64,000 nt of DNA, taken from the NCBI GenBank assembly GCA_047601445.1, contig JASGJH010000001.1:8256001-8320000 (forward strand), read 5' to 3'. The stretch is from Myxococcales bacterium. Lineage in GTDB: Bacteria; Myxococcota_A; Polyangia; Polyangiales; DASUME01. A program made the position numbers. Below are positions 39,001 through 45,000 of the stretch, one piece after another (positions within the stretch are counted from its first letter, which is position 1; every line of letters begins with the position of its first letter).

Positions 39001-42000
39001 CTATTGGCTGGCCGCGCGTGATGCACAGAGCGCCTATCTGGACGGCGGCAAGACCTACAAACTCGTGGTTCCCATACCGGTGCCTGGCAAGCTGTTCTGG
39101 TCGGTCACGGCCTACGACGCGGAGACGCGCAGCCAGGTGAACACCGACCAGGGGCGTGCTGCGCTGCGCTCGATGTTCGAGCTCCAACATCTCGGCGCGA
39201 ACTCCGGCGAGCTCTACTTCGGGCCCACGCTCCCCAAGGGAGTGCCTTCCGAGCGTTGGATCAAGACCGTGCCTGGCCGAGGCTGGTTTGCTTACTTTCG
39301 CGTCTACGGTCCCGAGCCGTCGGCCTTCGATGGGACATGGAAGCCCGGCGATCTCGAGCCGGTGAAGTAGCGCGCACGCAGCGCCGCGCGTGGCGAATGG
39401 CGTGCGCATCTCCTGCAGCAAACAAAGCAAGGCCAGCTCAAGGTCTACTACAAGGGGGCGCCGCACGGCCTGATGGTCACCCACCGGGAGCAGCTGCACG
39501 CCGACCTACTCGAGTTTATCCGTTAGGCGGCGCGCCCGAGCACGCTCGCCAGCTGCTGGGACAGGTCATCGAATACCTTCGGGGCGAGCACTTGGCGCGC
39601 GAGCTGGATCACTGCCTCGAAGGCCTCGCGGGGCGCGTTCGCGCCCATGCCGAGCAGCATGCCGGTGCGCTCGCTGCCGTTCAGGGCAGGCAACATGTAG
39701 CTGAGCCAGCGCATCATCTCTTCGGGTGGCACGCTGGCCACGAGCTTGTCGTGCACCTCGATGAGGGTGGTGTCGTCGAGGGCGGCGTACAATGCCGGCA
39801 TCGCCAGCATCTCTTCGTCGGCCATGTGATCCAGTTGGTCGGCCATGTAGCGGCTCAGGGCCATGCAGAACTCCGCGCCACGCTCGGCCGCATCACTGCC
39901 AGTGGGATCGATCGCGGCGAGAGCCGCCTCCAGCCTGGGCATAGTGTCGTGCTGGTCTTCGTGGGCAGCGTCGAGGCGACGGGCGATTTCGGGGGCGTAG
40001 AGGGCGAGCAGCGGCATCACGTGCGCGTCTTCATGGTGCGCGTGGGACGCCAGCATCCCGAAGTCGTGCTGAACGCGCTCGCGAAGGCGCTCGAGCTCTG
40101 ACGGACGCGAGAAGTCCGTGGCACCTGCGAGCGACGAGAGCTGGCCGAGCAAGGAGCGGACGGCCTTGTGGATGGAGCGATACAAGTGAGAGCGAGGGTC
40201 GTGCATGGAGGAACTCCGGAAAGCGAGTCCGCGGTGTTCGTGCGCCGCGGACGATGATGACGTTTGTGCCTCCAAGTACGGCTCGACTCCATGCGCGACT
40301 TCCTGGGGCGAATCCTTAGAAGTTCCTAGAGAGTTCCTAAGATCTTCCTATGTGGTCAATTTTCGGGGAGGTCACGCGACCTCCCCGCCCGTCGCGGCAA
40401 AGCCGCGCCGGGGCCCACCCCACCGCGAGGTTCGCTTCGCTCACGTGGCGTTCTCGTCGTCCCACTGGGAGGTCACGCGACCTCCCCGCCCGTCGCGGCA
40501 AAGCCGCGCCGGGGCCCACCCCACCACGAGGTTCGCTTCGCTCACGTGGCGTTCTCGTCGTCCCACTGGGAGGTCACGCGACCTCCCCGCCCGTCGCGGC
40601 AAAGCCGCGCCGGGGCCCACCCCACCGCGAGGTTCGCTTCGCTCACGTGGCGTTCTCGTCGTCCCACTGGGAGGTCACGCGACCTCCCCGCCCGTCGCGG
40701 CAAAGCCGCGCCGGGGCCCACCCCACCGCGAGGTTCGCTTCGCTCACGTCGTGGGTGGCAATTTCTAGCCCACCTGGGTGACCCGAGAGCCAGCCCGGGG
40801 GTTTTGCGCGGGTCCCCGAATTATTGCTTAGAGATCGCTTGAGAAAAGCTGGCCGGTCCAACGACTGATGGGGCGTCCGACGGCTTGCGCCGCTTTCTGC
40901 GCGAGCCCTCTTGCTCGAGGAAAGCCACGATGAACTCTTCCTACCGTCTTGGACGGGCTGGGTATCGCCATGCCTTGTTCGCCCTCTCGTTAGCTTCCGC
41001 ACTGACCGCTTGCGGCGATTCCGAGCAAGTTGGGCAAAACCACTCGGCCATCAGCGACAGCGTGTGGTGCGACGCGCGGAAGGTCTTGAGTGAGCGCTGC
41101 GTGGCTTGCCACGACGGTCGCGGCACCGGCGGCTCGCCGATGGGACTCTCGACGTACAGCGAGATGATGGCCGACTCCCCCGAGAAGCCCGGTCAGAAGG
41201 TCTGGGAACGCATGAAGGTGCGCTTGCACGCGGACAAGGCCAAGGCCGAAGGTCTGGGGCCCATGCCGCCGCAGAACGACCTTACCAAGGACGAGCTAGA
41301 TGCGCTCGACACCTGGCTGGCCGCCGGCGCGCCCACGGGCGACGAGACGCAGTGCGCACTGGATGCGGTGCCCGACGAGGACCTGGAGCAGTACTGGCCC
41401 GCGTCTCAATGCGACGAGGTCTACCGAGTGGTGGCCACGGACGGGCAAGGAGGAAAGTTCCAGGTGCCCGTGGGCGAGAACCATCCGCAGGTCATGGTCG
41501 ATGCTCCCTGGGGCGACGAGGACGTGCAGGCCATCGCGTTCCGGCCGATTACCGACAACGCCAAGGTGCTGCATCACTGGATCCTCTATGACGCCGGTGA
41601 AGGCACCCTCACCTTTGGTCAAATCGGCTCTGGTCCCTTCCTCACCGGCTGGGCCCCTGGCGACAACCTGCACAAGGCCTTCCCGCCCAACGTGGGCATG
41701 ACGATGCCCAAGGGGAAGCAGAGCCTGCGCCTCGACATGCACTACTTCAACACCGCTTCGGACGCGAAGATCGAAGAGGACGCCAGCGGCGTGGAGATCT
41801 GCGTGGTCAAGGGCGAGCACATGCGCCCCGAGGCCGCCGCGGTCTCGCAGCGCTTCTCCAACATCACCAACCTCCAGATCCCCCCGCAAGTGGCCGACTA
41901 CGCGATCACCAGCGATTGCAAGGTCGTCACCACCGAGCCCGTGCACCTGATGACGGCCTCGCCCCACGCCCACAAGCTGGCCGTGCACATGAAGTTCACG

Positions 42001-45000
42001 GTGAAGAAGGCGAGCGGCGAAGAGATCGTGATGCACGACGGAGACTTCCAGTTCGGCGAACAAGCGTCCTACGAACTGGCTCCCGAGGTCGTACTCGAAA
42101 CCGGCGACGTGGTGACCACGACCTGCGTGTACACGAACACCACGGATCAGACGGTGACCTTCGGCGAGAGCACCACCAGCGAGATGTGCTTCAACTTCGC
42201 GGTGTACTACCCCTCGGGCGCCTTGAGCTGCAAGGGCTCCTTCTCCTTCTGAGGCAGAAGCCCGAGGCGGCCGTCCGCGAGTACGCCCCGCGGATGGTCG
42301 CAGGGGCGCGTGCTCATGTTCGCTGCTCCTTTCGCTAGACGCGAGAGAGCAGCTCTTTGACCATCTCGACGCAAGGAATGGCAACTCCGTTGGTCAGACG
42401 ATTCACCGAATCGCAGCGTCGGACGTAACCGAGGCGCTCGTAAAAGCCAGCGGCGTTGAGTGTCGAGTTGAGACGAACCTGGGATGAGCCTCGGCCAGCG
42501 ATGAGTCCTTCGAGATGCGTGACCAGGCCCGTTCCCACGTGCCGGTTCACGCATCGAGGATCGACGTAGACGGCATTGATCAGTGCCTCTTGTCGGTCGC
42601 AAACGCCGAAGCCGAGGAGAACATGGTCATGTTCGTCCACGATGCACTCGCTCCGTTCCATGAGTGCCGGATAAACTTCGGGCACCAAGGGGGCAAGCCA
42701 GGCCACGAGCTGATCACGCTCATAGTGCCTACAGCACAGGGCCTCGATGGAGGCGCGGTGCAGTTCAGCGAGAGCCTGGGCATCTTGGGTTCGGGCAATC
42801 CGAATCATCGCAGGATGAAAGGGTGCCCGCTCGCCCTAGACCGCGCAAACGCCCGATGTACGACCCGGCTGGGGAGCCAAGTTCGGCCGCGCATCAGGGC
42901 GAAGGGGACGCTTTTTCGCAGGTTACTTGAACAGGGAGCCCTGTTCGTTCGCTTCATCCTGGAGGATCTTCGCGACCCACTCCGCGATGCTCAGTTCGTT
43001 GTCGTTCTTGGTGAAGAACTCGGGACGCCACAGGTGCATGTGCTTGCCGCCCGCGAGCGTGTAGAAGCCCACGGTGCCGCGCTTGGTCACGTTGGTGAGC
43101 ACGTCCTGAAGGCCCATCGTGAACTTCTCGACCGAGTAGGCACCGCCGTTGGCGATGGACTGCTCCACGGTGTTGGAGAAGGGATCGACGGTGCAGTTGT
43201 TCTCGCCCGGCGCGTAGAAGGCGCGGATGATCTCGTCGCCCACGCTGGAGATCATGCCGCCCATCATGCGGTCCTTGTACTTCTCGTGGAAGAGCCACTG
43301 CCCGTAGCCCGTCACGATGCCACCGCCGTCGCTGTTGAAGCAGCCTTCGCAGTCCTTGGGCAGGATCTCGTCGAGGCCCCAGGTATCGCGCCAACGCTTC
43401 TGCAGGCAGGGAGCCATGAAGGCGTCCTGGAACGGCACGCCCGAGTCGCTGATGGCATAGACCTTGGCCTTGCCGCGCTTCTTGAACCATTCGACGGTGT
43501 AGTCGGCGTTGAAGAGCGTTCCGAAGCCGCCGGCGCTGGAGCCCGTGAGCAGCACCTTGCCCGCATCCTTGAAGGTGGGGCCGAAGCTGTCGAGCATCTT
43601 CTCGTAGTTGCGGCGACCCATGAAATTCTGGGGCTTGTCGAGGCCCTCGATCATCACGTTCTCGCGCGTGCCGGCGTGGATGTCTCCCGTGCAGTACGGG
43701 ATGTAGATCATGCTCCACTTGGCCGCCGGATTCGTGGCATCGGCGCGCTTGAAGATGCCCTCTTCGGGAGCCTTCTGCTTGCCGCGCAGGGAGAGGTTCT
43801 CAGCGCCCTCGATGCCTACGAGCAACTCGGGAAAGCCATGGATCAACGACTCGATGGGGAAGTCGTAGTTGACGTTCGTGGGGTTCAAGTTGCAGAAGAA
43901 CTTGTCCGCACAGGCGCCACCGCCGTTGAGATAGATGAGCAGGTTGTTCTCGGTGCCCTTGCGGTAGAAGTAGCCCGCAGGCGAGCCGTCGCGGCAGAGG
44001 GTGGTCTTCATGGACACCCAGGTCCAGTCGTTGTCGTCCGGGGCACCGGTGGGCAGGGAGCCGTCGGTGGGCAGGTCTGGATCGGTGTCCTGGCCACCCA
44101 TCTCCATGCCGCTATCGCCGTCGCCCGTATCGCCATCGCCGATGTCGCCATGGCCCGTGTCGCCGTCGCCGGTATCACCATCGCCGGTGTCCCCGTCGCC
44201 GTCCCCATCGCCGTCGCCGTCGCCGGTGGCGGGCTGGCCACCTTGTTGGCGGCTCGGCTCCTCGGCACAAGCGGCCAGGCCAGAAGTCAGAGTGGAAAGC
44301 CCAATGAACCAAGCAACTGCGCGCAAACTCATCGAAATCACCCCGTTCTAAGGAAGCGCGACCGGGGCACGAATGCGTCCGGTACGGCCGAGCCAAGCAG
44401 CGGTCGACCATACGGCGGGTCCCAGGAACGAAGTGCTCAACCGGTTTGCCGAATCGCTCAAAAGGCTCGGCCGGGACCTCCGCCCAGCTGCTTCCGGAAT
44501 TCGGCGGGGCCGGTCCCGTGCCAGCGCCGAAAGGCCTTGTGGAAGCTGGCTACGTTCGAGAACCCCAAAAGGAAGGCCACCTCACTGATCGGCAGGCTCC
44601 GGTCTTCGAGGTATCGCGAGGCAAGCTCACGACGCACTTCATCGACGATTTGCCGATGCCCGGTGCCTTCCTCCTCCAGTCGCCGCCGCAAGGTTGGACC
44701 ACTCATCGCCATGGCCTTGGCGACCCACAACAGGCTGGCCTCGCCGCGAGACAGGTTCTCGACGACGAGCGCGCGCACCCGGCCCGTCACGCCCTCTTGC
44801 TTGCGTGACCCCTCGAGGAGCTCGTTCACATGAGCGGCGTAGGTTGCATGGACGACCGCGTTCGCATGGACCAGAGGCGCGTCCAGGTAGGCGCGCGGGA
44901 AGACGATGGCGTTGAACGGCATGCCGAGGCGCACCGGACAGCGAAAGACGCGCTGATAGTCGGCTTCACTCGTCGGCGCCGCGTGGGCAAAGTGCACCTC

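What a model noticed while it worked through the whole genome (the two positions that open the first line are those of the whole stretch)
40930..42252. Cytochrome c fused to a PHM/dopamine-beta-hydroxylase-type copper monooxygenase: an eight-member lipoprotein family
Eight exported proteins (2858759, 4282674, 4671801, 4713319, 4763393, 5738862, 7364521, 8296930) join an N-terminal c-type haem domain to a complete two-copper PHM/DBH domain. The built-in cytochrome is a likely electron donor in place of the ascorbate used by the animal enzymes.
Evidence so far: 8 of 9 Cu2_monoox genes have CxxCH; all 8 have the CuM HxH and EMC motifs and 7 of 8 match the CuH HH motif. In the 120 best homologs: CxxCH 119, HH 118, EMC 120; C57, C60, H61, M112, H215, H216, H271, H346, H348, M419 invariant in 36 aligned. 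Model pLDDT 81; top Foldseek hits human DBH (E 1e-16) and PHM.
(Added by a program. Inside this text positions count along the whole contig: contig position 8,256,001 is position 1 of the stretch shown here. "Call 12" and the like, gene names such as g00115 and contig names such as C1 are that model's own, and its searches are not shown. The text may have been shortened before it was handed on; [...] marks where a part breaks off. The agent that wrote the report below was given it as the finding of a first reader that could run no searches.)

Follow-up and report, generated by a model that had tools for sequence, protein, structure and literature searches.

The report
Haem-tethered bacterial two-copper hydroxylase family
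This myxobacterial gene encodes a membrane-anchored protein that joins a small cytochrome c to the two-copper enzyme core animals use to make noradrenaline and amidated hormones; it is one of many copies in this genome and belongs to a very large bacterial family whose substrate is still unknown.

Summary
Confirmed, with corrections. Window 40930-42252(+) encodes a 440-aa lipoprotein: a His/Met class I cytochrome c domain (CxxCH 57-61, M112), then a PHM/DBH double jelly-roll with all six copper ligands (model pLDDT 92; DBH E 6e-17; PHM Z 22). The genome has 11 such copper genes, not 9: 8 intact haem fusions (all 8 have HH), 1 frameshifted fusion, 2 without haem. The unit is widespread: 160 of 301 phylum genomes, predicted look-alikes in four other phyla. 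This scan has reported it before on other DNA (50 notes, at least 44 genomes). It is not PHM proper: the peptide-anchoring Arg240 is absent in 144 of 144 relatives. Best reading (0.6): an envelope O2-dependent hydroxylase re-reduced through its tethered haem. New here: the copies are expanded to 11-26 per genome and stand alone, without the redoxin partner seen elsewhere. The window gene's own subclade carries His in place of PHM Tyr79 and has lost the haem domain repeatedly, so the haem is a dispensable module. I found no paper on a characterised member. Haem binding, electron transfer and substrate are untested.

The parts
40930..42252 (+). Whole gene: lipoprotein, cytochrome c domain plus PHM/DBH-type copper domain, 440 aa (P0001)
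40930..41013 (+). Signal peptide with lipobox ending at Cys28 (predicted lipid anchor)
   Evidence: read from the sequence; Cys at this column in 109 of 120 homologs and 125 of 133 representatives; no dedicated signal-peptide predictor was run
41059..41358 (+). Class I cytochrome c domain (residues 44-143), bracketed by conserved C47 and C142 (likely a disulfide, inferred)
   Evidence: Pfam PF00034 above cut-off; profile hit to cytochrome c6 E 5.9e-7; domain model pLDDT 90.9; the top 9 structural rows are c-type cytochrome proteins, Z 6.1-3.2
41098..41112 (+). Haem-attachment motif C57-x-x-C60-H61
   Evidence: 119 of 120 homologs; 125 of 133 representatives
41263..41265 (+). M112, predicted distal haem ligand
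   Evidence: 120 of 120; aligns with the conserved Met of cytochrome c6; that this Met is the c6 axial ligand is recalled
41359..41394 (+). Short acidic linker between the haem and copper domains; much longer and Gly/Asp-rich in several paralogs
   Evidence: distance from the end of the haem domain to HH is 75-163 residues in the 113 sequences measured, 86 here
41395..42231 (+). PHM/DBH-type double jelly-roll copper domain (residues 156-434)
   Evidence: Foldseek DBH E 6.1e-17, PHM 6.3e-16; VIA Z 22.2, rmsd 3.8, 263 aligned to PHM, next unrelated row Z 8.5; profile E 3e-37 DBH, 4e-33 PHM
41482..41484 (+). H185, at the position of PHM Tyr79; marks the window gene's subclade
   Evidence: profile alignment; His in 26 of 35 inside the clade, Tyr in 96 of 102 outside
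41572..41577 (+). H215 H216 (PHM H107 H108), CuH ligands
41740..41742 (+). H271 (PHM H172), third CuH ligand
41959..41973 (+). S344 (PHM R240 position, Arg absent) and H346-x-H348 (PHM H242, H244), CuM ligands
42061..42063 (+). Q378 (PHM Q272), second-sphere residue of CuM
   Evidence: Gln in 142 of 144; H242-Q272 hydrogen bond in PMC9064607
42181..42189 (+). E418-M419-C420 (PHM M314), CuM thioether ligand
   Evidence: 144 of 144

Best explanation
A lipid-anchored, extracytoplasmic two-copper hydroxylase of the PHM/DBH kind with its own one-electron donor. After export, the System I (Ccm) machinery attaches haem c to C57/C60, with H61 and M112 as ligands, and CuH (H215, H216, H271) and CuM (H346, H348, M419) are loaded. 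The haem takes electrons one at a time from the membrane chain (most likely alternative complex III or the envelope cytochrome pool) and passes them to the coppers. It must turn over twice per cycle, since the reaction needs two external electrons. CuM then binds O2 and hydroxylates a C-H bond of a small substrate. The substrate is not a glycine-extended peptide. I favour (about 0.35) small hydrophobic or aromatic compounds met at the cell surface, with the scattered paralogs covering different compounds. The haem is a tethered module: conserved in most members, but replaceable by a free donor in part of the window gene's subclade. Shown: sequence, ligands, fold, maturation genes, distribution, losses. 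Inferred: haem and copper binding, direction of electron flow, O2 chemistry, donor, substrate class.
For: All six copper ligands in 144 of 144 representatives whose copper domain could be cut out, plus Q272 in 142. PHM/DBH fold. His/Met cytochrome c6-like domain, with all ten ligands in 121 of 133 full-length representatives. Three PF01578 genes and CcmE present. An NrfD-type gene lies about 5 kb from a haem-copper oxidase subunit I; PF00033 not found (reading this as complex ACIII is inferred). Haem supply varies in ways that fit a donor role: one relative has four tandem haem modules (P0237), and one haem-less paralog heads a tight co-directional run ending in a cytochrome-like lipoprotein. 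Atlas models from four phyla align over 349-362 residues spanning both domains, TM 0.73-0.79 (predicted on both sides). Precedents: a c-type cytochrome reduces bacterial LPMO copper (PMC8981238, abstract); a tethered cytochrome c serves RpNiR (PMC13324648, abstract). Pocket positions are hydrophobic and differ among paralogs.
Against: No measurement of haem, copper, potentials or activity. At least 8 representatives and 5 closed metagenome ORFs keep the copper site without haem, so the haem is not required in every member. The second haem-less paralog (4288475) has no cytochrome gene among the neighbours printed, and the cytochrome-like neighbour of the first has a non-standard CxxxxCH and only a weak Pfam hit (E 0.12). 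In PHM, ascorbate also acts as a conformational activator (PMC9064607). No neighbour points to a substrate.
Confidence: 0.6

Rival explanations
1. Same copper hydroxylase, but the haem mainly gates or tunes the enzyme (substrate access, copper potentials, priming of an H2O2-driven peroxygenase cycle) while bulk electrons come from small reductants.
For: In RpNiR the tethered cytochrome changes Km and copper potentials and controls substrate access (PMC13324648, abstract). Repeated haem loss with an intact copper site. One haem holds one electron while two are needed (PMC9064607, introduction).
Against: Haem ligands are kept in about 94% of full-length representatives (125 and 126 of 133). A four-haem version looks like a wire.
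Confidence: 0.17
2. Electron flow runs the other way: the copper site oxidises a substrate (oxidase or dehydrogenase chemistry) and the haem exports electrons to the respiratory oxidases.
For: The closest solved relatives of the haem domain are c6/c551-type carriers, which are usually high-potential (recalled). The genome has three haem-copper oxidase subunit I genes. One haem-less paralog sits with a PQQ-type propeller.
Against: The CuM His2Met O2-binding site and its second-sphere Gln are conserved exactly as in the monooxygenases.
Confidence: 0.1
3. A non-catalytic copper-binding, storage or redox-buffering lipoprotein that has kept the PHM scaffold.
For: No substrate-pointing neighbours; many copies per genome.
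Against: No copper-homeostasis family among the 108 neighbour proteins scanned, apart from one borderline MopE-type motif (E 0.001, below cut-off). The asymmetric CuH/CuM ligand set and the Met are invariant.
Confidence: 0.07
4. A bacterial peptidylglycine alpha-hydroxylating enzyme that amidates peptides.
For: Fold and all copper ligands match PHM.
Against: Arg at the R240 position in 0 of 144; Asn at N316 in 2 of 144; Tyr at Y318 in 8 of 144. No NHL/PAL family among the 108 neighbour proteins. The profile scores DBH slightly above PHM.
Confidence: 0.04

Closest known systems
Peptidylglycine alpha-hydroxylating monooxygenase (PHM, rat PAM catalytic core; PDB 1PHM, 1OPM, 1SDW)
   Same: Double jelly-roll (Z 22.2); H107, H108, H172, H242, H244, M314 and Q272 all have counterparts; extracytoplasmic.
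   Different: About 20% identity; bacterial lipoprotein; N-terminal cytochrome c; R240, N316 and Y318 not kept; Tyr79 is His and the Cys81 position is Gln in the window gene; no lyase partner among scanned neighbours.
Dopamine beta-hydroxylase (human DBH, PDB 4ZEL) and tyramine beta-monooxygenase
   Same: Best sequence, profile and Foldseek hit; same copper ligand set; also lacks the PHM Arg before HxH (alignment).
   Different: The N-terminal domain is an all-helical cytochrome c, not the DOMON domain of DBH (DBH layout recalled); the protein ends right after the copper domain, with no C-terminal dimerisation domain; substrate unknown.
Three-domain haem-copper nitrite reductase (RpNiR)
   Same: A class I cytochrome c tethered to a copper enzyme as a built-in redox partner (PMC13324648); the haem-domain profile weakly hits the haem domain of 454-457-aa copper nitrite reductases (E 0.07).
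   Different: Cupredoxin fold, nitrite reduction, C-terminal haem; unrelated catalytic domain.
Cellvibrio Cbp2D X183 cytochrome with bacterial LPMO
   Same: A small c-type cytochrome that reduces a copper monooxygenase in place of ascorbate (PMC8981238, abstract).
   Different: Donor and enzyme are separate proteins; LPMO is a mononuclear histidine-brace enzyme (recalled).
Uncharacterised bacterial cytochrome c::Cu2_monoox proteins with a redoxin partner (Planctomycetota fusions; Chondrinema WP_284688968.1 with WP_284688969.1)
   Same: Same haem plus copper unit.
   Different: There a thioredoxin-fold protein is fused or directly upstream; no homolog of that redoxin was found beside the Polyangiales-type copies.

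Membership tests
Copper type II (PHM/DBH/TBM) monooxygenase superfamily | Two-domain double jelly-roll catalytic core | tested here: met
Copper type II (PHM/DBH/TBM) monooxygenase superfamily | CuH site of three His (H107, H108, H172 in PHM) | tested here: met
   H215, H216, H271; 144 of 144 and all 10 intact paralogs
Copper type II (PHM/DBH/TBM) monooxygenase superfamily | CuM site His-x-His plus Met (H242, H244, M314) | tested here: met
   H346, H348, M419; 144 of 144; ligands per PMC9064607
Copper type II (PHM/DBH/TBM) monooxygenase superfamily | O2-dependent C-H hydroxylation with two external electrons | not testable with these tools
   needs purified enzyme and a substrate
Copper type II (PHM/DBH/TBM) monooxygenase superfamily | Ascorbate as reductant | not testable with these tools
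   no assay possible
PHM proper (peptide amidation) | Arg240 salt bridge to the peptide carboxylate | tested here: not met
   Ser344 here; Arg in 0 of 144; role of R240 in PMC9064607
PHM proper (peptide amidation) | Asn316 and Tyr318 substrate contacts (roles recalled) | tested here: not met
   Phe421 and Phe423 here; Asn in 2 and Tyr in 8 of 144
PHM proper (peptide amidation) | Fused or partnered PAL lyase | tested here: inconclusive
   not fused; no NHL family among 108 paralog neighbours or 4 window neighbours; the whole genome was not searched for PAL
DBH/TBM/MOXD proper | N-terminal DOMON and C-terminal dimerisation domains (recalled) | tested here: not met
   N-terminal domain is helical cytochrome c; the protein ends at 440, just after the copper domain
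Class I cytochrome c | CxxCH near the N-terminus of the domain | tested here: met
Class I cytochrome c | Distal Met about 40-55 residues downstream | tested here: met
   M112 invariant in 41 of 41 rows, aligned to the c6 Met
Class I cytochrome c | Class I helical fold | tested here: inconclusive
   best Z only 6.1 (FoxE, rmsd 3.5, 93 aligned), although ranks 1-9 are all c-type cytochrome proteins; apo model
Class I cytochrome c | Export and a maturation system in the genome | tested here: met
   signal peptide; PF01578 x3 and CcmE x1; ResB not found
Class I cytochrome c | Covalently bound haem | not testable with these tools
   needs haem stain or spectra
Bacterial lipoprotein | Hydrophobic signal ending in a lipobox Cys | tested here: met
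   C28; loose pattern matched in 98 of 120 and 99 of 133; no dedicated predictor run

The most novel reading that the evidence does not exclude
This is a large bacterial branch of the PHM/DBH enzymes wired straight into the respiratory chain through a tethered haem, doing envelope C-H hydroxylation with no ascorbate, on a substrate class not yet known for the family. The window gene's subclade has rebuilt the CuH surroundings (His for Tyr79, no Cys81 disulfide, a loop half as long) in a way that lets it take electrons from free donors, which is why it alone keeps shedding the haem. Haem-bearing and haem-less near relatives would then form a natural pair for settling how electrons reach CuM.
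Probability: 0.3. Interest if true: 0.85.

Novelty: new variant of a known kind. Interest (0 to 1): 0.62.

Why it matters
How the two distant coppers of PHM and DBH exchange electrons (open versus closed conformer) and what ascorbate really does are open questions (PMC9064607). A bacterial, probably E. coli-expressible member with a built-in haem gives an optical reporter of electron delivery and needs no vitamin C; natural haem-less relatives supply the control. The family is very large (8478 representatives at E up to 1e-10, a count that includes copper-only and other partial matches). One paper read here treats PHM as a eukaryotic family (PMC8812541). Expansion to 11-26 copies per genome in these myxobacteria suggests an unrecognised layer of envelope oxidative chemistry and a source of new C-H hydroxylation biocatalysts.

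Tried and rejected
Complex prediction of the haem domain against the copper domain as separate chains with haem riding along: no answer, score 0.00, neither for nor against. RNA runs: no RNA holder was listed, which is no evidence on expression. Search for longer fused forms of P0001: only 2 distant TPR-rich proteins among 8000 candidates, weak evidence. A locus scan with the diverse alignment A2 failed for lack of a conserved stretch and was run with A1 instead. NCBIfam: no family above cut-off for 7 proteins. Look-up of earlier findings by sequence found nothing, nor did one word search. A conserved operon partner was looked for and not found across 47 related loci plus 11 own loci (heuristic ORF filter): the commonest neighbours were kinases (13 loci), AraC (7) and LysR (6), which are abundant families; a BNR propeller cluster covered 5 loci, directly downstream in the 4 that I checked. 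L033 looks haem-less but has no clear signal peptide, so it was not counted. The VIA alignment to DBH chain B extends into the N-terminal region; I did not read this as DOMON homology, because the model's domain is all-helical. Ten literature searches listed no paper on a bacterial haem-fused PHM/DBH protein; the library lacks most subscription papers, and no supplements were read.
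Full report
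Observation. The gene is real: 40930-42252(+), 440 aa. Pfam gives Cytochrom_C at 51-131 above its cut-off and Cu2_monoox_C at 314-432. The protein reads: signal peptide and lipobox Cys28, a cytochrome c domain (about 44-143), a short acidic linker, and a copper domain (about 156-434). The nearest homologs that carry a taxon label are mostly Polyangiales metagenome genomes.

Paralogs. The genome has 11 PF03712 matches, against 0 of 14 control genomes. Eight are intact fusions, 22-48% identical to the window gene over the best BLAST segment, and all eight carry CxxCH, HH, the third His, HxH and EMC in register. A ninth fusion at contig 8401820-8403593 is split by a frameshift just before HH; this may be an assembly error. 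Two more are lipoproteins with no CxxCH and with QMC. The copies are scattered and share no specific neighbour.

Conservation. Of 427 homologs found, the 120 best were listed: CxxCH 119, HH 120, HxH 120, EMC 120, M112 120. A profile search of 1.84 billion representatives gave 21161, 8478 and 1297 hits at E up to 1e-3, 1e-10 and 1e-30; the looser counts include copper-only and other partial matches. Of the best 150, 133 were full-length; 121 keep all ten haem and copper ligands.

Fold. With a 150-row alignment, residues 44-440 model at pLDDT 92.1 and pTM 0.89. Foldseek: human DBH E 6.1e-17, rat PHM 6.3e-16. VIA: PHM Z 22.2, DBH 20.3, next PNGase F 8.5. The profile hits DBH (3e-37), PHM (4e-33) and, with its N-terminal part, cytochrome c6. 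A haem-domain profile aligns M112 with the conserved Met of c6 (E 5.9e-7). The domain alone models at pLDDT 90.9; its best structural score is only Z 6.1, but the top nine rows are all c-type cytochrome proteins. System I maturation genes are present; ResB was not found.

Active site. I numbered PHM residues by counting along the printed alignments. The copper domain could be cut from 144 of 150 representatives. All six copper ligands are invariant, and Q272 is kept in 142. The peptide-binding set is gone: Arg at position 240 in 0, Asn316 in 2, Tyr318 in 8. R240 and Q272 roles are from PMC9064607 (passages); N316 and Y318 roles are recalled. These pocket positions are mostly hydrophobic and differ among paralogs. 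It works like PHM/DBH but is neither PHM nor DBH proper.

Distribution and partners. 34 of 41 related genomes match P0001. 160 of 301 phylum genomes match the profile at E up to 1e-15, a floor. Four same-genus genomes have 11, 18, 18 and 20 PF03712 matches, and one from another family has 26 (these five were picked for high counts). The Atlas lists look-alike clusters in Gemmatimonadota, Pseudomonadota, Acidobacteriota and Planctomycetota, the last fused to a redoxin; eight of the ten structure rows align over 349-362 residues covering both domains (predicted models on both sides). A Bacteroidota plasmid copy has a redoxin gene 8 bases upstream. No homolog of that redoxin lies near the Polyangiales-type copies in 47 plus 11 loci or in 38 metagenome loci; the genome has three weak homologs elsewhere. 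A BNR-propeller gene follows one subgroup.

The haem is a module. The distance from the end of the haem domain to HH ranges from 75 to 163 residues in 113 sequences, often filled with Gly/Asp repeats. One relative has four tandem haem modules. The same module occurs in this genome without any copper domain (contig 7389983). Eight representatives run straight from a lipobox to an intact copper domain. For the tree I used 140 copper domains: 160 inputs, less 6 that could not be cut and 14 fragments or ambiguous cases; it was rooted on the two QMC paralogs, an assumption. All eight haem-less proteins fall in one 35-member clade (support 0.998) that holds the window gene and three paralogs. Parsimony needs 7 changes including the outgroup, so about five or six losses, with several weak nodes. 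That clade has His at the Tyr79 position in 26 of 35 (Tyr in 96 of 102 outside), lacks the Cys81 counterpart, and has a median HH-to-Trp loop of 16 against 33. DNA confirms the losses: in 38 metagenome loci found with a haem-less query, 30 have CxxCH, 5 are closed ORFs without it, and 3 are cut off. One haem-less paralog heads a tight run ending in a cytochrome-like lipoprotein with a non-standard CxxxxCH; the other has none among the neighbours printed.

Mechanism. PHM needs two external electrons, stored on CuH and CuM (PMC9064607, introduction). A tethered His/Met haem c is the simplest supplier, recharged twice per cycle. An NrfD-type gene near a haem-copper oxidase and no cytochrome b match point to alternative complex III as the upstream source (inferred). 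Precedents exist: a c-type cytochrome activates bacterial LPMOs (PMC8981238, abstract), and RpNiR uses a tethered cytochrome that also tunes and gates the enzyme (PMC13324648, abstract). Against a simple swap, ascorbate also activates PHM conformationally (PMC9064607, abstract), and the haem has been lost repeatedly. I give the donor reading 0.6, gating or priming 0.17, reverse flow 0.1, non-catalytic 0.07 and peptide amidation 0.04.

Novelty. Ten searches (listings only, apart from the papers cited) listed no study of a bacterial member. PMC8812541 (passages) describes PHM as widespread in eukaryotes; PMC2938197 and PMC11495043 (passages) do not discuss the family. Subscription papers and supplements were not seen, and Pfam-based database labels already mark these proteins as copper type II monooxygenases or cytochromes. 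This scan noted the same unit in 50 findings from at least 44 genomes, usually with a partner gene; these are unchecked notes, not support. What this locus adds is the partner-free expansion and the His185 subclade that sheds its haem. Verdict: a new variant of a known kind, interest 0.62.

Noticed in passing
window 40366-40749: 3.8 head-to-tail copies of a 101-bp GC-rich unit that folds into three hairpins, just upstream of the gene; 189 blastn hits in 138 clusters genome-wide, so a REP/BIME-like dispersed repeat (label recalled).
   Followed up: partly
G000 C1:8401820-8403593 (L008): A ninth cytochrome-copper fusion split by a frameshift just before the HH motif; real pseudogene or assembly error not settled.
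   Followed up: partly
G000 C1:7389983-7391053 (-) (L010): Lipoprotein with the same cytochrome module plus two more CxxCH motifs and no copper domain; a candidate free electron carrier.
   Followed up: partly
G000 C1:6453373-6458887 (+) (L009): Haem-less QMC-type copper gene heading a tight run: Cys-rich lipoprotein, amidohydrolase with an RR motif, PQQ-type propeller, and a small cytochrome-like lipoprotein with CxxxxCH.
   Followed up: partly
P0237: 728-aa relative with four tandem cytochrome modules ahead of the copper domain.
   Followed up: no
P0266, P0267: About 1270-aa proteins (one labelled Acidobacteria) that join cytochrome c and Cu2_monoox_C to many TPR repeats and PF03704.
   Followed up: no
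G000 C1:4670430-4671734 (-); L039, L040, L045: BNR/sortilin-like propeller gene directly downstream of one subgroup of the family; three of the four printed end in a hydrophobic, basic tail, L040 is cut off.
   Followed up: partly
G000 C1:4761810-4763318 (+) (L005): 502-aa lipoprotein directly upstream of paralog 4763393 with no Pfam match; His-Gly and Ala-Cys motifs suggest a caspase-like peptidase (recalled, untested).
   Followed up: no
window 39523-40275 (-), 42335-42808 (-), 42923-44341 (-), 37841-39370 (+): Flanking genes are a hemerythrin-domain protein, a GNAT acetyltransferase, a pectinacetylesterase-like lipoprotein and a DUF1254/DUF1214 protein; none recurred as a family neighbour in the clusters printed.
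   Followed up: partly
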